Shown in pieces: positions 8,838-23,867 of a DNA stretch of 64,000 nucleotides. Under the pieces are notes generated by a model. That model was not told the DNA's origin. It saw nothing but the letters and a program-made list of their open reading frames with translations, and searched no databases. This stretch comes from the human T2T-CHM13v2.0 reference genome, Homo sapiens. The stretch lies in assembly GCF_009914755.1 (NCBI RefSeq), contig NC_060934.1. One strand, 5' to 3'. The position numbers and the translations under genes were made by a program. Every line of letters begins with the position of its first letter. Position 1 is the first letter of the stretch.

Positions 8838-8840
<3 letters not shown>

Positions 8841-8898
<58 letters not shown>
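8841..8898. repeat. (AT)29 pure microsatellite
   Basis: 58 nt uninterrupted. Confidence 0.97.
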
Positions 8899-8901
<3 letters not shown>

Positions 8902-9377: not shown

Positions 9378-9546
9378 CCAGGCCAAAGTGTGCCACGGGC
9401 TCCATCTCACACAGGTAGCCTGAGCCCCCGTCGATGATCCTCAGGTGGGCCCCACTCTTCTTGGTGTAGAGCACGACCTTAGCTCCCCTGGCAAAGGCCC
9501 CAAACCGGGTGCGTGGCACCACTCGCAGCCAGTTGTTGTTGAAGCC
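9378..9546 (-). CDS. CRTAC1: CRTAC1 exon 11 (169 nt), GFNNNWLRVVPRTRFGAFARGAKVVLYTKKSGAHLRIIDGGSGYLCEMEPVAHFGL (ASPIC/UnbV domain start)
   Basis: Translated by hand (the ORF track does not list this frame); acceptor gcag|GGC, donor CTG G|gtgagt. Confidence 0.96.
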
Positions 9547-15610: not shown

Positions 15611-15860
15611 TTTCCCTTCCCTTTCCCTGCAATAGCAGAGGCCGGCTCCTTGGCCAGGCTTTGCCCTGCATTCCCACAGCCTCTTGCCCAGTCCTCGTCC
15701 TTCCTTCCTTTCTGTTTCTTCATCAGGGGACCTGTGTTGACCTTGGCCTGACCCCCTGGCCCTGGGAACCCTCCCCTTCTGATTCTTAAACCTTCTCCCT
15801 GACCGTTCCTCCCACCAGCTGTCAAGGATGAAGAGCCACGAGCCAGGATGGAGCATCTAC

Positions 15861-15997
15861 CGGAAGAGGCGGTTGGCTGAGGAGCTGCGGTAGGCAATGT
15901 TGTTGAAGAAGATCTCCAGCTCCTGGTCATTGTCAAAGTCGGCGGTGATGACCGTGCGGACAGGGGAGGGCATGGAGAACTTGGGTGAGGCGATGTC
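15861..15997 (-). CDS. CRTAC1: CRTAC1 exon 8 (137 nt), DIASPKFSMPSPVRTVITADFDNDQELEIFF...NRLF
   Basis: Acceptor ccag|GAC, weak donor CG|gtagat; within ORF 15857..16081. Confidence 0.96.
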
Positions 15998-16484
15998 CTG
16001 GAGGAAACAAGGCTGGGGGTCAGTGGCAGGAGAGTGGGCTGGGGCGGGAGGCCAGCTCTCCTCTATGGAGTGTGGGGGCAATTAAAAATAAGAGACAGTC
16101 CAACCCAAAAGCTCCTCTCCTGCCTCCCGCAAAGGACCTGGGGGCTGCCTTTAGGACCACACAGACCTCAGGCTGCTTGTACGAGAAGAAGGAGGGAAGA
16201 ATAACAGTCGTGCTAGACACCAGTGAAGTGCTTAGCCGATCCCTAGTCTGGATCACACCTGTCCATCCCTTCTGTCCATCCCTTGAGGCAGTACAGACAT
16301 TAGCCTTCCCATTTGACGGGTGAGGTAACTGAGTCCTGGAGAAGGAGGGGAACTGCGATGTCACAGCTACTGAGTGGGGAGGCCAGGGCTTCTGATTCCG
16401 GACTCTGTGCCCTTTCTCCTAGGCACCCTTCCTCCTCTGTGCTGAGTCAGAAGCTGGGTGGGCACCGGAAATCTCTGTGCATCT

Positions 16485-16640
16485 AAATCCAGGCTCCACC
16501 ACTGACTAGCTGTGTGATCTTAGGCAAGTTACTAACCCCCTTGGATCTCACCTTCCCCATCAGTAATGTGGGAATAGTAATAGCTGCCTGGGTTGTGAGG
16601 ATTGCATGTAAAATGCCTGGCACAGAGTGGGCATGACATA
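16485..16640 (+). mobile_element. MIR SINE
   Basis: actagctgtgtgatcttaggcaagttactaac core. Confidence 0.7.
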
Positions 16641-17522
16641 GCTCGCTGGCAGCCTGTCCTGCCTTACCCACCACCTGCCTCAGGGAAGGTGAAAGAGGTT
16701 ACCTGTAGCTGTGGATTTGGCTGCCTCTACTACCTTACGTTGTTTCTTGGGAGTCTTTTTATTTTTATTTTTTGAGACATTTGCTTTGAGGGGGTTGCGG
16801 TATCAGCTACACCTGTCCAGGACTAATGGGGAGACCCCAGGCCCAGGATAGCCCAGCTGGGACTCCAAAGTACTGGGAGGGCCTTGGGGGACCAGGCAAA
16901 GGGTCCCAGGTGTGTTTCTGCCTCTGAAATAGAAGGAGAGCTGGGAAGGGCAATCTTCTATTTCTGAGCGTAATATCCTCATCATAGGTGGGTTTTTCCC
17001 CTAAAGACCTTGGGGACATGTCTAAGTCCCAGGGCCCACGTGGAGAGGGCTGAGAAAGGTACAGGTGGTGTCTCTGGGAGCATCCTCTACCCGACTTGGG
17101 CCTGCTCTCGGCCTCCTGCTGCAGACCCTCTTTGGCAGCCACAGGGATGAGCAGGCTGGGTCAGCGGTCGAGCTGCCTGCTCTGGGGAGGCCAGGGAAAG
17201 AGGCTGTCTCCATCAGAGGAGTAATGAGGTTGAATAAGCCTGGCCAGCTGGTCTGGGTGGGTTGAGCTGGGCCTTAAGAGCCAGGGAGCAAAAAGACCTC
17301 AGGATCTCTAGCCGTTATGATTCTATTGATCCTATAAAAATGGAAACCTCCCATAGCCCCCTTGGGGTTGCCCTATTCGATGCCTGAGCTTCCGAGATAA
17401 TGTATGTTAAGCTTAGCACAGTTCGTGACACATGGAAGGCACTTGATAAATAGGGCATTTATGTATTATTAGTATTATTATTGCTCCTGAGAGCTCTGGG
17501 GAGGGGCCTTCGGAAGAATTAA

Positions 17523-17738
17523 CAGGGTTCCTCACCCTCAGTGCGTTGGCGTTTGGGACTGGATAATCCTTTGTTGTGGGGCTGCTTTGTGCACTGTAGG
17601 GTGTTCAGCCCTATCCCTGGGCTCTGCATACTAGATGCCAGGAGCCCTCCCTTCCCCAGCTGTGACAAACCCAAATGTCCCCAGACATTGTTGAATGTCC
17701 CAGAGGGAGGGCAGCAAGATCATCCCTGTTGAGAAGCT
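17523..17738. mobile_element. MER20 DNA transposon
   Basis: ggataatcctttgttgtggggctg...gtgacaaacccaaatgtccccagacattg...gttgagaa. Confidence 0.8.
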
Positions 17739-18369
17739 GGGTGAGAACAAGAGTAGAATAAAGGTGGAAATCGTCCAAGATCCCAGGACGAGCTGTCCTG
17801 GGCTCAGGGCATGCCTCTTCCCAGCCCAGGGAGCCTGAGTCTCAAGCCTTAGCAGGGAGGGAGTGGCTGGGCCTGGGCGTCCCAAGGTGGCTGCTTACAG
17901 GGAAGGGACTTGGTAGGGGTGGCCTCTTCTTGGTTACACAGACATGAGGTCCCTGGGGACTTCCCTGGGATCCTCAAGCCTCAGGAAAACCCTGGAACTT
18001 TCCCATTTCCTCAGGGGTTTTTGGCAGACCTAGGTATCTGCAGAACAGTCCTGGATCCCTGAGATCAGCTTCAACCAGCCCATGCCCTCTGTTGCCCTCC
18101 CTGAGAAAGTTCCAAACCCATGCCCCTCATGCTGTTGGCACCTCCATCACTGTCACTAACAGCCCTTTTGAAGAATTCTTGGCATCGGTCTATCAACAGC
18201 TCAGGGAGGGGGCACAGAGAGGGCTCTGAGGCCACCTTGCCTGCCATCTGCTGTTTGTCTTTAGGGGCAGCTGTTGGGAACTCCGTGGCTTCAATCTTCC
18301 ATTCTCTCCACCACTTTGCCCTTGGTTTGAACGTCAGTCTGAAAAGGTCTAAAAAGCTGAGGCCTGGCT

Positions 18370-18421
18370 TTTGTGGAGTGTGCAGGGGATGCCATCCTGT
18401 ATCCCCTGCACACTCCACAAA
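18370..18421. repeat. Perfect 21-bp inverted repeat with 10-nt spacer
   Basis: tttgtggagtgtgcaggggat (18370-18390) and atcccctgcacactccacaaa (18401-18421). Confidence 0.97.
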
Positions 18422-18764
18422 CACTCTCTGCTCTAGCTGCTGGATCCTTTCCAGGAGCCACCAGAAAAAATGGCCTGGATCCAGAGAGTGCAGTCCACCT
18501 CCCAGGACTCCGGCCCACCTCGGAGGCTGCTCTCCCACCTCTGCTGACCTGGTTCTTCCTACTCTTGGATCCAGAGCTCCTACAGCAGCCCAGCTGTAGT
18601 CCCTCGTCCCCTGGTGTAACCTTCCTTGTCACCCCACCCCCACTCTGGGCCCTGAGAGCCTTGAGCCCTGCTCAGCCTGGTGGGAGGAGCGAGGCAGCTC
18701 CATGGCATGCCGGGGCACCCCTGCAGTGGTGCTGTAGGGAGGAGTGAGGGAGAGGCCCTTTCTT

Positions 18765-19007
18765 TTTATTTTATTTTATTTATTTATTTTTTTATTTGAG
18801 ATGGAGTCTCGCTCTGTCACTCAGGCTGGAGTGCAGTAGCACGATCTCAGCTCACTGTAACCTCTGCCTCCTGGGCTCAAGATTCCTGTGCCTCAGCTAC
18901 CGGAGTAGCTGGGATTATAGGCACGCACCACCACACCTGGCCAATTTTTGGTATTTTTAGTAGAGACAGGGTTTTGCCATGTTGGACAGGCTGGTCTTGA
19001 ACTCCTG
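18765..19007 (-). mobile_element. 5'-truncated Alu (AluS-like) adjacent to exon 7 donor
   Basis: Reverse-complement Alu ending at gaactcctg; 17-bp TSD 18748-18764 / 19008-19024. Confidence 0.93.
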
Positions 19008-19026
19008 GGGTGAGGCCCCTTCTTAC

Positions 19027-19172
19027 CCGGAAGCGGACCTTCCCATGGGTGCTCATTTGCAGATAGAGGCGGTGGGGGCCATTCCAGTTGCCATAGACGA
19101 TGTCCACTTTGCCATCACGGTTGAAGTCAGCCAGGGCGACACCTCGCCCATGCTGGTGGGGGTCGTCCACAC
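19027..19172 (-). CDS. CRTAC1: CRTAC1 exon 7 (146 nt), VDDPHQHGRGVALADFNRDGKVDIVYG...KVRFR
   Basis: Acceptor ccag|GT GTG, donor CGG|gtaaga; DFNRDG FG-GAP motif; within ORF 18877..19233. Confidence 0.97.
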
Positions 19173-19639
19173 CTGGGGAGGAGAGGCAGGAACTCTCAGG
19201 GCGGCATCCCCTGCACACTCCACAAACACTCACCCTGCTCTAGCTCTGTGACAAGCAACTAGGGAGGGTGACTCTCATCTTGTTCCCGGGAGGAGATACG
19301 GGAGACATAGCTGCAGTCTCAGAAGCTCTCTATAGGGGCAGGAAGTGGGACAGTCATGTGCTTGAAAAGAAGACCCAAGACTTGTGTTCAAGCTGTGTTT
19401 GCCCAGCATGCATATTATTTTTACCCTGTTTGGGGGGTGGCATGGGTTGGGGGAGGGAGACTGGGGGAAATTCTGGAGGACCAAAGGCTCTTCCCGGCCA
19501 CCCCTAACACTGCCACTGGAAGACATTAAGCTGATCATGCCACTCTTTTGCTTAAGCTGATCATGCCCTCCAATCCTTTTAGGGAAAGTTCTAATTCCTG
19601 CCTGGGGAGCACAGGGTTCTGCCTGACCATGGTCCTGTC

Positions 19640-20065
19640 CGCCTTATCTGGTCTTGATCTGGTCCCACTCTCCCCATCTTTCCAGCTCCTGGGCCTTTGC
19701 TCAAGCAGGTCTCTACCTGGGATGCTCTCCCTCTAGCTCTAGGTTACCCAGCTCCTGGTTATTCTGCTCTCAGCCACAATGTCACTTCCTCCGGGAAGCC
19801 CTCCCTGACCACGCATCTGAGACAGCTCATCTTGCCCACCCTGTCAATCTCCCTGACAGCCTCTTAGTCTTCTCCTCCAACATGTTGATCACAATGTGCG
19901 GTTACGTTCCTTTGTGGTTGACTTGTTAGGGTCCGGTTTTCCCACTATCCCTGACGTTCCATGAGGTCAAGACTCTCTTCTTGGTTCACCTGGGTACACG
20001 CAGCATCTATCTCAGGGCCTGTGGTTGCCTGGTAGTTTTCAGTAAATACTTGCTGAATGAGTGCA
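19640..20065 (+). mobile_element. L2 fragment
   Basis: Ends in cagtaaatacttgctgaatgagtg, L2 3' end-like. Confidence 0.55.
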
Positions 20066-22370
20066 CAGACATAAATAACATGACAGAAGGCAAACCGGGG
20101 ACGTGGGTGACAGCAGAGGAAATACTACAGCCACGACAGAGAAGCCCACAGCATGCCTGGTGAGACCTGGAAAGCGAAGCCTCTGTGCCCAATGCCACCT
20201 GCTTATACTATCCACGGAGTGGGTGCTGGGGGAGGAGAGAGGGTGGCTTTGCCCAGAGCGATGGGCTGACCTCCTAGCTGCTCACTGGCCAGTGCATAGC
20301 TTGAGAGACAGAGGTGAATGCGACTCTAAGCACCCACCCACGTTGACTCTTTCAGAGGACAAATAGCTGTGGGTCATCAGGCTCTCTGGGATGGCAGACC
20401 ACAGGACAATGTAATAGGCAGTGGGGATCAGAGACCCCAGGACACAGGGAGCTCTTGCCAGAAGGCAGGGTGGGGCCCCCTGAGAACCCTGGAGGCTGAG
20501 TGTCCTCCTGGGGGAGAGAAGGAGCTGGGGGAGGTGTGGGAAGAAGAGGCAGTGAGACTTGAGAAAGAGGGTTCGCAGAGGACTAGGGGCAGCCTCCAAT
20601 CCCTAGGATTAATACTCCATTAATTCTCTGCCAAACTCCTCGGCCCAAATGTCGGTGGCCTTCTGCGTTGGCCCATTTCTCTCCTATCTATGAGGCACCT
20701 TGACAAGGAGCTGGTTCCCTTTCACGGGAATAATCGGTGCCAGGCTGCATTTCACAGCAGCATCTGTTTGGGTGATGAATGCCCTCTTGACATGTCTTGT
20801 TAAACCCCTGCAATCATTCTGACTTTCAATTACGGGCCTAGCACCTTGCCTCTCTCCTCCCGCCTGATACCTTCTCCCACTCCAACTTGTTCGCTCACCT
20901 CTGCTTCCATCTCTTTAACACCTTATCAAATCCTCTAGGTTTTCTCCACTATTCCCTCCCCTTTGCTTTATGATTTTTCAGCAATGAGAAAATTTGCTGC
21001 CAAAGGATAGCACTAGGAGGGGTGAGCCAGGTGGGAGGACAGGCCAGGGGAGTCCAACTTCTGCCTTGCCAGAGAAGGATAAGAGGTAAGGCAAGGTAGG
21101 GAGCTGAATGGCAAAAAGCTGGGGGTGGGTGTGCATTCTGGGCCAGTAAGTCCCCACAGTGGAGCTCCTGGGCAGAATGCTGGGGTGGTAGGTACTCGTA
21201 AGTCCAAGAATCCAAGAGAACAGACTGGCACACGTGCAGGGATTCGATGTGAACTGCTGGCAACAGCCAGAGCTTGCAGGACCCTTGATCTCTGTGTCTA
21301 GATCCCACTCACCACTCCTGCAGGCCAGAGCTCTTCCCCATGCCTCCAAGAAGGAGGTGAAATCAAACCTCCCATTCATTGGCAAGGTCGGGGGAAATGG
21401 TCAGGGGTGCCTGGGATGTAATCATACATCCGAAAACTTGCAGGAAGTGTCCACTCTGTCATTCAGCAGAATTTACCGGTGGGCACTGGAGGCCAAGCCT
21501 TGCGTCAAGAATGAATAGAACCGTGACCCGGTCCTTGTAAAGCTCATAGACAAACCATGATGGCAATGTGGAGCCTGAAGAAGACGTGCATGCCAGGGGC
21601 AGCAGGAGGAGGAAGGACCAGTTTCTGCTAGGTGGCACAGGGAGTGAGGAAAATCTCTGCAGAGGTGATATTTGAGGTGAACGATGAAGGCTAAACGACG
21701 TTCTGCAGGTAGAGAAGGGGGAGGGCAGTCCAGGCAGAGGCCATGGCAAGTGCAAAGGCCCTGAGGTGGGTGGGGGATGAGTGCAGAGGAAGGAGGAGGA
21801 GCACAGCTGGGGGCCTGGGGCACTATTTTGTGTGGGTTTTATCCTGCTTCTTATTACAGCCGGATATTTTTGTCTACATCTGTTTCTAGAAAGTCATTGC
21901 CTTTTCTGTGTGTAGGGTGGTCTTAGCCTGATTCAAGTGGGCATCCCTGGTTCCCAGTGCCAACCTGACACTTAGTAGGGGCTCCATGAATGCTCACTGT
22001 ATTGAACTGAATGTTGAAGATAAATGTGGGAGGGGGCCAAGGTGGGGAGAGGCAGCTTGGAGGATAGGTTGATGCTGAGAGACACAAGCAGGACTTGGAG
22101 GGTCGCGGGCAATCTCAGGTACTGGAAGATGGCAATTGGCAGGAGTTTCAGACCCCTTTCCCCAGCAGCAAACACTCCCTGTGGCTGGAGCCAAGGGAGC
22201 TAAGGAATAGGAAGTGACAAGCAGCGTTTCTCTGTGTGGTGCAGACGATGACTTGCCCTGCTCTCCCTCAGCCAGAAGAGACTATCCTGGAGGGGGCAGG
22301 GCAGTCTGGAGTCCTCTGTGGGTCTGGGGTGAGGGGTCAGGGTGCACAGGGCATGGCTGCCTCCACTCAC

Positions 22371-22505
22371 CAGCACTGGCCGCAGCGTCCACAAAGGTGC
22401 CATCGCCCCGGTTGTGGAAAAGGAAGTTAGGCCCATTCTCATTGTCGCAGAAGATATCCGAGGCACTGCTGCTGAGGATGGGGCCCACGCTGACGCCTCG
22501 GCCCC
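22371..22505 (-). CDS. CRTAC1: CRTAC1 exon 6 (135 nt), GRGVSVGPIL...HNRGDGTFVDAAASA (RGD motif)
   Basis: Acceptor ctag|GG GGC, donor GCT G|gtgagt; symmetric phase 1-1; within ORF 22282..22764. Confidence 0.97.
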
Positions 22506-23867
22506 CTAGAAAAGACATCGACCCACAGTGAGTGGCAGAAGCAAGCCCCAGGCCCACCTGGAGGACAGGGCTGCCTCTGAGGCCTGAGGGGAACTGCAGC
22601 AGAGGCTCCTCAGAGGAGCCTGGGGGGAATTCTGCTTCCCGTGCTTTCCTGAGCCTAAATCTGGGCTCATGGTCTCCATGAATCTGTGTGGAAGGTAACA
22701 ACACTGATGAAGAGGGAAGGAAGGAGCTCAACCGGGCATGGGGACCCCACACAGAGGCCAGCATCTGCCTTCCCCTTCTAAGAGAAGTGGCTGAACAATC
22801 ATCTTAAATCCTAAACCCACAATAATCCTAAACCCAACTCTAAGCACGCCATTTTGGTCAAGTCACAGATACCCCAACAGACTCCCGACTCTCACTTTGA
22901 GTGATACATATGCTGGTCAAGACCACTGGGTATGTCCCAGCTTTAAGAACCTATAGGGATAGGTCCCAGCTATAGGTACGCAGATGCTTACTTTGCTTTG
23001 TTTGACGTTAAACAATTACATCCATCAATAGTGAATGGGTTGAATGGATTATGGAGCATCCATATGACAAACCATTCTGCAGTAAAAAGACTGCATAGAT
23101 CCATATGGATTGACTTGGAGGAGTGCCTGTGATATATGGTTGAAAGAATCAGCAATTCACCAAGTAATGGTATTGTGAGATCTTGCTTTTATTTTTTAAA
23201 ATAGGAAAATACATGCTAGTTCTGAATACACATGTTTGTGCAGAGTTATTCAGTTCGGAGAAAAGTGGGAAAGGCCGCACCCCAAGCTGTGAACACTGGC
23301 TACCTTCCTTGATGGGGTAGGATGTGGGGAAGGAAAGAGAAACGATAGTTGGCCTTTTTTCTTTGAATGTCTTTGTAGTGTTTGACTTGTTGCAATAAGA
23401 ACTGCTTCTGTAGTTTGAAAGGAAGAAATCCAATAAAGTATATATGTTTTTTAAAACGGAAAGAAATCAAGCCAGCTCCACATTGGGCTTTGAAGTCTCT
23501 AAGATCAAATCTGAGCTATCCACGTCAAGAAGTCTAACCTTAATACGTCCTGAACAAACCACCCCCACCCAGTGGGTTTCAAATGAAGACTCTCTGCTTG
23601 CCAGGCCCCACCTCCAGCTCCCAGGAACACAAATCTGCCCTGAGAAAGCCTTCCCTCAGCCACGCCCCCAAACGCTGGAAATACTGTGCAGAAAATGGCC
23701 CGACCAGGATCAAGACACGGCTTCTAGCCCCAGCCTGGCTTCTAACAAGCTCTGTGACCCTGGGCAATTTACGTTACCCTTGAGCCTCAGTTTCCTCATT
23801 TGTAAAATGGGGGAGAGTCCGACCTGCTTTTTCTACTTTGGGGTTTTGAGAGGACCAAATGAGGTAA

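What the first reader, a model, noticed from the sequence alone, without database searches (positions are those of the whole stretch)
18370..19245. Competing RNA-structure module around exon 7: branch-point-masking duplex plus a local decoy hairpin
SEEN: three related non-transposon segments. X (19197-19226, intron 6) is the reverse complement of anti-X (18370-18399, intron 7): 24 perfect bp (19203-19226 vs 18370-18393), extendable to 30 with one G.U and one mismatch in the pre-mRNA. X' (18401-18438) is a direct copy of 19206-19245 (26 identical nt, a small indel, then 11 identical nt). It sits beside anti-X and forms a perfect 21-bp hairpin with it. X covers intron positions -54 to -25 of the exon 7 acceptor, up to the base next to a plausible branch A (CCUGAG, A at 19196 = -24). 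Skipping the 146-nt exon 7 shifts the frame to a TGA at 15935-15933 in exon 8. KNOWN: competing docking/selector pairings and loop-out duplexes regulate splicing (Dscam1-type), and premature stops trigger NMD. INFERENCE: X:anti-X would mask the branch point and loop out or circularise exon 7, while X', transcribed just before anti-X, would sequester it. This could be a riboswitch-like inclusion/NMD toggle, or a template-switch accident neutralised by a compensating duplication.
Basis: partly seen in the sequence, partly recalled or inferred. Interest (0 to 1): 0.8.

Follow-up and report, generated by a model that had tools for sequence, protein, structure and literature searches.

The report
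Template-switch hairpin scar flanking CRTAC1 exon 7
A roughly 50-base piece of the intron just upstream of CRTAC1 exon 7 has been copied into the downstream intron in both orientations, making a perfect hairpin that also matches the original; it is most likely a harmless replication scar rather than a splicing switch.

Summary
The three segments are real, far beyond chance, unique to this locus in the genome, and not a transposon.

The anatomy fits a known mutational class. About 52 nt of the 3' end of intron 6 (19197-19248) was duplicated into intron 7. A short-range template switch of four-point type 1-3-4-2 then wrote a reverse-complement arm beside the copy and inverted 9 nt of its left flank into the hairpin loop. 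On this history, or on a one-step compound insertion, anti-X never existed without X' beside it, so no separate compensating duplication is needed.

Folding shows two real competing conformers. The X:anti-X duplex is intrinsically stronger (about -58 against -40 kcal/mol). The predicted winner flips with the amount of flanking RNA: the long-range duplex wins up to 1.6 kb and the hairpin wins at 2 kb and above.

I found no evidence of use. Searches gave no report of exon 7 skipping or a CRTAC1 circRNA, and there is no Rfam family match. Conservation could not be tested because no vertebrate genomes are held. My verdict is a probably neutral scar, with the regulated toggle physically possible but unsupported.

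The parts
19197..19248 (-). Source segment (X plus its extension) in intron 6, spanning intron positions -25 to -76 of the exon 7 acceptor. It is the only contiguous sequence that contains both the part copied in inverted form (19197-19226) and the part copied in direct form (19206-19248).
19197..19226 (-). X: the 30 nt complementary to anti-X, with a perfect 24-nt core at 19203-19226. It lies directly 5' of the predicted branch A.
19196..19196 (-). Predicted branch-point A at intron position -24 (CUGAG in the transcript). It is the only A with U at -2 in the usual branch-point zone. This is a prediction, not a mapped site.
19173..19195 (-). Polypyrimidine tract and AG acceptor of exon 7. The stretch -21 to -1 has no AG apart from the acceptor.
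19027..19172 (-). CRTAC1 exon 7, 146 nt, encoding an FG-GAP repeat. The donor is GTAAGA.
18765..19011 (-). A 5'-truncated Alu, in sense orientation in the transcript, lying between exon 7 and the hairpin. It is flanked by 13-nt target-site duplications at 18752-18764 and 19012-19024 (12 of 13 identical). It has no inverted Alu partner within 15800-22600.
18401..18443 (-). X': the direct copy of 19206-19248 in intron 7. Its first 21 nt form the 5' arm of the hairpin in the transcript.
18391..18400 (-). The 10-nt hairpin loop. Nine of its bases (18391-18399) are the reverse complement of a sequence that matches the X flank 19197-19205 at 7 of 9 positions. I read this as an inverted spacer.
18370..18399 (-). 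Anti-X: the inverted copy of 19197-19226. Its first 21 nt (18370-18390) form the 3' arm of the hairpin in the transcript.
15933..15935 (-). The first in-frame stop (TGA) in exon 8 if exon 7 is skipped.

Best explanation
This is a neutral scar of template switching during DNA replication or repair, not an evolved regulator.

**Step 1 (inferred).** About 52 nt of single-copy sequence from the 3' end of CRTAC1 intron 6 (19197-19248) was duplicated in direct orientation into intron 7, about 800 bp away. That distance was about 550 bp before, or without, the Alu.

**Step 2 (inferred from the anatomy).** A short-range template-switch mutation of four-point type 1-3-4-2 occurred at the new copy. The polymerase jumped to the end of the 21-nt core, copied backwards through the core and 9 nt of left flank, then returned to the start of the core. 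That single event writes a perfect 21-nt inverted arm and leaves the old left flank as an inverted spacer, which is now the hairpin loop.

**Why the arm matches X.** The arm was templated on a paralogue of X, so it is also complementary to X across exon 7. Because the loop is the inverted flank, the match runs 9 nt further than the hairpin stem.

**Alternative route.** A less favoured route to the same product is one compound templated insertion copied from X in both orientations.

**Consequence in the pre-mRNA (inferred).**
- Anti-X emerges 10 nt after X' and about 830 nt after X.
- By then X is predicted to be already paired elsewhere. I also expect it to be occupied by U2 snRNP components on a strongly defined exon.
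- The local hairpin therefore captures anti-X, exon 7 is spliced constitutively, and the module has no appreciable effect.
For: **The copies are real and locus-specific.**
- Three copies of the 21-mer occur in the window against 0 expected.
- In the whole genome the only exact copies are these 3, of 7 places with up to 2 mismatches.
- The 86-nt and 601-nt queries are single-copy.
- Homology stops at about 44 nt (direct) and 30 nt (inverted), and nothing else is shared between the flanks 17900-18753 and 19014-20200 beyond words of 12 nt or less.

**The layout matches the four-point model.** The hairpin has perfect arms, and its spacer is the reverse complement of the paralogous flank at 7 of 9 positions. 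[quoted passage not shown] Template switching is reported to create perfect stems, or combinations of inverted and direct repeats, in one event (PMC10710096, passages). Thousands of such events are reported in human genomes (PMC5453318 and PMC9435742, passages).

**The two flank differences look like ordinary decay.** Both are transitions, and one is at a CpG (read).

**Folding gives no clear advantage to the long-range duplex.**
- With 2001-3001 nt of context, the hairpin conformer is favoured by 11.8-14.3 kcal/mol, with P = 0.97 at 2001 nt.
- Before anti-X is transcribed, 13-23 of the 24 X core bases are already paired elsewhere in prefix folds.

**Exon 7 looks constitutive.** It has a strong pyrimidine tract and a GTAAGA donor, and it encodes an FG-GAP repeat above Pfam cut-offs.

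**Nothing in print points to use.** Searches returned 0 papers for four spellings of a CRTAC1 circular RNA and 0 papers holding both CRTAC1 and 'exon skipping'. A passage in PMC8536980 mentions only a long and a short splice variant.
Against: - **The long-range duplex is intrinsically the stronger one.** It scores -57.6 to -61.7 kcal/mol against -40 to -42.9 for the hairpin.
- **It wins in shorter contexts.** It is the predicted equilibrium state in contexts of 921-1601 nt, with P = 0.96-0.98 and 2.9-9.8 kcal/mol in its favour. It is also the MFE in prefix folds from 19800 once anti-X is present. Thermodynamics therefore does not show that the hairpin wins.
- **The loop could act as a toehold.** It is complementary to X, which could allow invasion of the hairpin by X.
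- **The differences avoid the pairing core.** All 5 differences between the X lineage and the intron 7 copies lie outside the central 26 nt. By my arithmetic, uniform placement gives about 0.03. This test is post hoc and weak.
- **The feature is rare.** It is the only non-transposon, non-low-complexity perfect inverted repeat of 20 nt or more within 3 kb in 264 kb examined.
- **Step 1 is unexplained.** Short-range template switching does not itself account for a dispersed direct duplication over about 800 bp.
- **No outgroup or population data were available.** The order of events, their age and their fixation are all inferred.
Confidence: 0.65

Rival explanations
1. Unregulated side effect. 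In a fraction of transcripts X:anti-X forms, occludes the region just 5' of the branch point and loops out exon 7. This would give low-level exon 7 skipping, with a frameshift, the TGA at 15935-15933 and NMD, or a 146-nt exon 7 circular RNA. Nothing would switch between the states.
For: - X:anti-X is the only sizeable complementarity flanking exon 7 within 15800-22600.
- It is stronger than the hairpin and is predicted to dominate in contexts up to 1.6 kb.
- It abuts the predicted branch A.
- Inverted repeats of about 30-40 nt can suffice for circularisation in plasmid assays (PMC4201285, abstract and passages).
- Exons looped out by complementary intronic pairs have lower inclusion on average (PMC8052449, passages; PMC13019944, passages).
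Against: - The adjacent X' competes at a distance of 10 nt, and it wins in contexts of 2 kb or more.
- Exon 7 has strong splice sites.
- Not every short repeat supports circularisation, and G.U pairs can abolish it (PMC4201285, passages). This duplex has one G.U and one mismatch.
- No report of a CRTAC1 circRNA or of CRTAC1 exon skipping was found.
- CRTAC1 is absent from the 3 held supplementary files of PMC8052449.
Confidence: 0.2
2. Regulated three-element switch. X' and X compete for anti-X, and a trans factor, elongation rate or helicase shifts the balance. That would toggle exon 7 inclusion against NMD and so tune CRTAC1 output.
For: - Two mutually exclusive conformers exist, and their predicted ranking flips with context. 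The difference ranges from -9.8 to +14.3 kcal/mol across six contexts.
- The hairpin loop offers 9 nt of extra complementarity to X.
- Competing intronic pairings do regulate splicing in human ATE1 (PMC7797038, search listing and abstract only).
Against: - There is no evidence of alternative use of exon 7.
- The layout is exactly what a mutational mechanism produces in one or two steps, so it needs no selection to explain it.
- Skipping destroys a repeat of the folded domain and yields only an NMD substrate.
- Conservation and covariation were not testable here.
Confidence: 0.07
3. A different origin only, compatible with neutrality. A single compound templated insertion, of the microhomology-mediated break-induced replication or polymerase-theta end-joining type, occurred at the intron 7 site. 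It copied 19226 down to 19197 from one strand, then 19206 to 19248 from the other, and then returned.
For: - X is the only contiguous source for both partial copies.
- This route avoids a separate dispersed direct duplication.
- Longer-range template switching (FoSTeS, MMBIR) is discussed as the same family of processes in PMC5453318 (passages).
Against: - It needs three switches over about 550-800 bp.
- Reading the junctions, I see no microhomology at them.
- Insert lengths of 30 nt plus 43 nt are long for end-joining insertions; this point is recalled, not tested.
- The inverted-spacer layout is explained more simply by a local 1-3-4-2 event.
Confidence: 0.3
4. Small-RNA precursor. The intronic hairpin at 18370-18421 is processed into a young microRNA or endogenous siRNA, as reported for other hairpins born by template switching.
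For: - The stem is a perfect 21 bp with a 10-nt loop, in sense orientation within a transcribed intron. Its fold z-scores are -5.85 and -5.03, with 0 of 200 shuffles folding as well.
- There are sub-threshold resemblances to young miRNA families.
- Template-switch hairpins have given rise to miRNA genes (PMC10710096, passages).
Against: - All 5 miRNA-family matches over the hairpin fall far below their gathering scores, at 22.6-33 bits against cut-offs of 90-100.
- The stem is 21 bp, with only interrupted pairing below it, against a preferred 35 bp (PMC10710096, passage).
- The gene table supplied with the finding lists no miRNA gene here.
Confidence: 0.04

Closest known systems
[quoted passage not shown] 2023, PMC10710096)
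   Same: The arm is a perfect reverse-complement copy written beside its template. The spacer is an inverted piece of the former flank. The result combines inverted and direct repeats, lies in unique intronic DNA, and gives a perfect stem at once.
   Different: The ancestral state is inferred from a paralogous copy (X) 800 bp away, not from an outgroup genome. The template was itself a recent duplicate, so the new arm also matches a distant site across an exon. I did not see that situation described in the passages I read.
Intronic complementary pairs that loop out exons (conserved pairs of PMC8052449; inverted Alu pairs of PMC13019944)
   Same: Complementary segments sit in the two introns flanking one exon. 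The duplex is about -58 kcal/mol and spans about 800 nt.
   Different: This pair is not Alu-derived. Its conservation is unknown, and no lowered inclusion of the exon is documented. One arm has a closer competitor 10 nt away.
Short inverted repeats that drive exon circularisation (Liang & Wilusz 2014, PMC4201285)
   Same: The complementary repeats flanking an exon fall at the lower edge of the reported size range of about 30-40 nt. The upstream arm lies next to the branch point and acceptor.
   Different: No circular RNA from this exon was found in print. The duplex carries a G.U and a mismatch, and an intra-intronic competitor is present.
Competing RNA structures in splicing (human ATE1, PMC7797038, abstract only; Dscam1 docking/selector system, recalled)
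   Same: One segment (anti-X) can pair with either of two like segments (X or X'), and the two pairings are mutually exclusive.
   Different: There is no cluster of mutually exclusive exons. The alternative outcome would be a frameshifted NMD substrate rather than a second protein isoform. No conservation has been shown.

Membership tests
[quoted passage not shown] | A segment that is the exact reverse complement of directly neighbouring sequence | tested here: met
   18370-18390 against 18401-18421 is 21/21 complementary with a 10-nt spacer.
[quoted passage not shown] | The spacer between the arms is the inverted form of the ancestral flank | tested here: met
   This was tested by proxy only. 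The reverse complement of loop bases 18391-18399 matches the X flank 19197-19205 at 7 of 9 positions. The true ancestor was not seen.
[quoted passage not shown] | An ancestral or outgroup sequence lacks the inverted copy, so that one event explains the whole cluster | not testable with these tools
   No vertebrate genome other than the window's own is held (one search states that the genome has no relatives here).
Interspersed repeat / transposon fragment | Many dispersed copies in the genome | tested here: not met
   Only this locus matches the 86-nt and 601-nt queries. The 21-mer has 3 exact copies, all here, of 7 places with up to 2 mismatches. The tool warns that its counts are lower bounds.
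Exon loop-out by flanking complementary intronic segments | Stable complementarity between the two introns that flank the exon | tested here: met
   The pair is 30 nt with 28 complementary positions, at -57.6 to -61.7 kcal/mol.
Exon loop-out by flanking complementary intronic segments | The duplex forms in the transcript and lowers inclusion of the exon | tested here: inconclusive
   The predicted winner flips with context. No skipping is reported. CRTAC1 is absent from the 3 held supplementary files of PMC8052449. RNA-seq and duplex-capture data are not available here.
Dscam1-type docking/selector system | One docking site and several selector sites, each tied to one exon of a mutually exclusive cluster | tested here: not met
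   A single 146-nt exon lies between the arms, and no duplicated exon lies in the flanks. The definition of this family is recalled.
Circular-RNA-promoting inverted repeats | A back-spliced product of the enclosed exon | not testable with these tools
   No expression data are held. Literature searches gave 0 papers naming a CRTAC1 circular RNA. The listing of 15 of the 26 papers holding both CRTAC1 and circRNA showed no title or abstract about such an RNA, and only one of them (PMC6691371) was opened, for a single passage.
microRNA precursor | A match to a known family, or a stem of about 35 bp with processing evidence | tested here: not met
   The best Rfam match scores 33 bits against a gathering score of 90. 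The stem is 21 bp plus interrupted pairs. Processing evidence is not testable here.

The most novel reading that the evidence does not exclude
A lineage-specific, mutation-born three-element RNA switch. A template-switch event created in one stroke both an arm that masks the branch-point region and its own local decoy, and the balance between the two now sets how much CRTAC1 pre-mRNA keeps exon 7. The alternative outcomes would be NMD or a 146-nt circular RNA. It would show a regulatory RNA switch arising ready-made from a single replication error.
Probability: 0.06. Interest if true: 0.65.

Novelty: new member of a known kind. Interest (0 to 1): 0.3.

Why it matters
If neutral, as I think, the locus is still a clean worked example. 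The third, paralogous copy acts as an internal outgroup, so a template-switch event, including its inverted spacer, can be read from a single genome.

It also shows that a 24-30 bp duplex able to mask a branch-point region can sit across a constitutive, frame-shifting exon when a closer competitor is built in from birth. That makes it a natural test case for how local and long-range pairing compete in nascent RNA.

If it does affect splicing, it would touch CRTAC1, a secreted matrix protein used as a biomarker in osteoarthritis and lung disease according to abstracts listed. It would then be a lineage-specific source of variation in expression.

Tried and rejected
**Explanations tested and rejected**
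- Interspersed repeat or MITE: rejected by the own-genome searches.
- Larger segmental or tandem duplication that includes exon 7: rejected. The flanks share nothing beyond the 44-nt and 30-nt matches, and the next best word is 12 nt.
- Inverted Alu pair as the real loop-out element: none within 15800-22600.
- Known RNA family: 9 matches at E up to 1 in 17500-20000, all below their gathering scores. Three lie over the Alu and five are generic hairpin matches.
- Deciding the conformer by thermodynamics: this failed, because the ranking flips with context.

**Base rate**
I examined only 264 kb: the window plus 20 stretches of 10 kb. In that scan I labelled the other hits as Alu or L1 from their k-mer multiplicity in the sample and from recall, not from a repeat library.

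**Literature**
- CRTAC1 with circRNA: 26 papers hold both terms and 15 were listed. No title or abstract in that listing concerns a CRTAC1 circle. I opened one, which only lists CRTAC1 as a differentially expressed gene.
- Four spellings of a CRTAC1 circular RNA: 0 papers.
- CRTAC1 with 'exon skipping': 0 papers.

**Sources that were closed**
They may list this pair or contacts across it.

**Dating**
Dating the copies from their differences gave no useful bound. There are 5 differences in about 53 columns between the X lineage and the copies, and 0 in 21 between the hairpin arms.
Full report
**What is there**

The window is human chr10, and CRTAC1 is transcribed from the minus strand. I read 18200-19400 and ran the repeat finder on 17800-19800.

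- **X and anti-X.** X (19197-19226) and anti-X (18370-18399) are 30 nt and 93% complementary. The perfect core is 24 nt, at 18370-18393 / 19203-19226.
- **Hairpin.** Anti-X bases 18370-18390 and X' bases 18401-18421 are 21/21 complementary across a 10-nt loop.
- **Direct copy.** X' is a direct copy of the X region, with 26 of 26 identical (18401-18426 = 19206-19231). A gapped alignment carries the match to 18443 / 19248 through a 2-nt indel, one substitution and a 1-nt indel.
- **Pairing in the transcript.** The six non-core positions of X:anti-X are one G.U, one unpaired C/A and four Watson-Crick pairs.

**Is it more than chance, and is it a repeat family?**

- The 21-mer has 3 matches in the 64-kb window with up to 3 mismatches allowed. 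The expectation is 0.00, and 0 of 100 shuffles gave any match.
- In the whole assembly, 7 places match with up to 2 mismatches. Three are the exact copies here and four are scattered 2-mismatch hits. The reversed control pattern gives 1, which is about what chance predicts.
- An 86-nt query across the hairpin and a 601-nt query across its flanks found only this locus. The tool warns that repeat counts are lower bounds.
- The flanks 17900-18753 and 19014-20200 share no further similarity beyond words of 12 nt or less. This is therefore a duplication of about 50 nt, not a larger one.
- Within the window, the only perfect inverted repeats of 15 nt or more within 3 kb are these two pairs and an (AT)n tract at 8840-8899.
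- In 264 kb (the window plus 20 arbitrary 10-kb stretches of the same genome), every other non-low-complexity perfect inverted repeat of 20 nt or more had arms that I recognise as Alu or L1. Their 14-mers recurred 3-49 times in the sample; I did not use a repeat library.
- The feature is therefore uncommon, at less than about one per 200 kb. In a 3-Gb genome it is not unique in kind.

**Splicing geometry**

- The nine annotated exons in the window give one open frame. Removing the 146-nt exon 7 gives a first stop TGA at 15935-15933.
- The acceptor has a strong pyrimidine tract and the donor is GTAAGA.
- In the last 80 nt of intron 6, the only A with U at -2 in the usual branch-point zone is 19196, at position -24 in CUGAG. 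The stretch -21 to -1 has no AG apart from the acceptor.
- X (-25 to -54) therefore begins at the base next to the predicted branch A. From recalled knowledge of U2 snRNP binding, this is the region that U2 components contact upstream of the branch site.
- The branch point is predicted, not mapped.
- Exon 7 encodes an FG-GAP repeat: PF13517 scores 34.7 bits against a cut-off of 26.9, and PF01839 scores 23.8 against 22.1. Skipping would damage the folded domain as well as shift the frame.
- No inverted Alu partner exists within 15800-22600. X:anti-X is thus the only sizeable complementarity across the exon.

**How it arose (inferred)**

Only the X region holds, in one contiguous piece, both what anti-X copies (19197-19226) and what X' copies (19206-19248). 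X cannot be a simple copy of the present intron 7 locus, because its left and right parts match different arms there. Either X or a full-length ancestor of X' is therefore the source.

The hairpin loop is the key detail. Its bases 18391-18399 are the reverse complement of a 9-mer that matches the X flank 19197-19205 at 7 of 9 positions. Perfect arms separated by an inverted spacer are what the four-point template-switch model calls type 1-3-4-2, which made up 23% of high-confidence human-chimp events (PMC5453318, passages). [quoted passage not shown] It also reports thousands of such events in human genomes.

My preferred history has two steps.
1. A direct duplication of about 52 nt from intron 6 into intron 7.
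2. A local 1-3-4-2 switch that wrote the inverted arm and flipped the 9-nt flank into the loop.

A one-step compound templated insertion copied from X in both orientations is the alternative. I see no microhomology at the junctions that would favour either route.

In both histories anti-X was born next to X'. The two flank differences are transitions, one of them at a CpG, as expected for ordinary decay after copying. The counts are too small to date anything: 5 differences in about 53 columns between the lineages, and 0 of 21 between the hairpin arms.

**Does the RNA switch?**

- The hairpin alone scores -40 to -42 kcal/mol. The X:anti-X duplex scores -57.6 by cofolding and -61.7 with flanks.
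- In partition-function folds, the mean pair probability of the long-range core is 0.96-0.98 in four contexts of 921-1601 nt. In a 2001-nt context it falls to about 0, and the hairpin rises to 0.97.
- Forcing each conformer gives the long-range form an advantage of 9.8, 2.9 and 3.0 kcal/mol at 921, 1201 and 1601 nt. It gives the hairpin an advantage of 14.3, 11.8 and 13.9 kcal/mol at 2001, 2401 and 3001 nt.
- In prefix folds starting at 19800, 13-23 of the 24 X core bases are already paired elsewhere before anti-X exists. Once anti-X is added, the MFE uses X:anti-X in all three prefixes tried.

The two conformers are real and close enough that these models cannot rank them. On kinetics, anti-X emerges 10 nt after X' and about 830 nt after X. 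By then X is folded and probably bound by the spliceosome. I therefore infer that the hairpin usually wins, but this is inference only.

**Evidence of use**

I found none.
- No Rfam family is matched. There are 9 matches at E up to 1 in 17500-20000, all below their gathering scores. The five over the hairpin score 22.6-33 bits against cut-offs of 90-100.
- The stem is 21 bp with only broken pairing below it, which is short of the 35 bp preferred for miRNA precursors.
- Searches of the paper library gave 0 papers for four spellings of a CRTAC1 circular RNA and 0 for CRTAC1 with 'exon skipping'.
- Twenty-six papers hold both CRTAC1 and circRNA, and 15 were listed. No title or abstract in that listing is about a CRTAC1 circle. 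I opened one, for a single passage.
- One passage mentions only a long and a short CRTAC1 splice variant (PMC8536980).
- CRTAC1 does not occur in the 3 held supplementary files of the conserved long-range-pairing catalogue.
- No other vertebrate genome, RNA-seq data or population data could be reached, so conservation, covariation and fixation remain untested.

**Comparison with what is known**

- **As a mutation**, it fits the template-switch class. The missing membership test is an outgroup.
- **As an RNA**, it resembles exon loop-out pairs, which are associated with lower inclusion (PMC8052449; PMC13019944). It also resembles the short inverted repeats that can drive circularisation (PMC4201285). 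That paper stresses that not every repeat works and that G.U pairs can abolish the effect.
- **Competition of two like segments for one partner** resembles ATE1 (abstract only) and Dscam1 (recalled). There is no mutually exclusive exon cluster here, so it is not a member of that family.

**Verdict**

The best reading is a neutral template-switch scar whose built-in local partner neutralises a potentially harmful long-range duplex (0.65). An unregulated low-level effect on exon 7 is plausible (0.2). A regulated toggle is possible but unsupported (0.07). I rate interest at 0.3, as a new member of a known kind.

Noticed in passing
window 18752-19024: A 5'-truncated Alu (18765-19011, in sense orientation in the CRTAC1 transcript) sits only 15 nt downstream of the exon 7 donor. 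Its 13-nt target-site duplications (18752-18764 and 19012-19024, 12 of 13 identical) abut the GT, so intron positions +3 to +15 are one copy of the duplication. The exon is still annotated as constitutive.
   Followed up: partly
window 19526-19567: An exact 16-nt direct repeat (19526-19541 and 19552-19567) is separated by a 10-nt spacer in intron 6, about 300 nt from X. It is a second small local duplication in the same neighbourhood, and its origin was not examined.
   Followed up: no
window 18401-18416 with 19180-19192: In the 921-nt MFE where X pairs with anti-X, the freed purine-rich X' is predicted to pair with the pyrimidine tract of the exon 7 acceptor. This is seen in silico only, and I did not check it in other contexts.
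   Followed up: no
window 8840-8899: An (AT)n tract forms the longest perfect palindrome in the window, with 30-nt arms and no spacer. It lies in the intron just downstream of the 9378-9546 exon.
   Followed up: no
window 18095-18124 and 18181-18210: A weak 30-nt inverted repeat (70% complementary, 56 nt apart) lies about 200 nt from the hairpin. It is probably chance.
   Followed up: no
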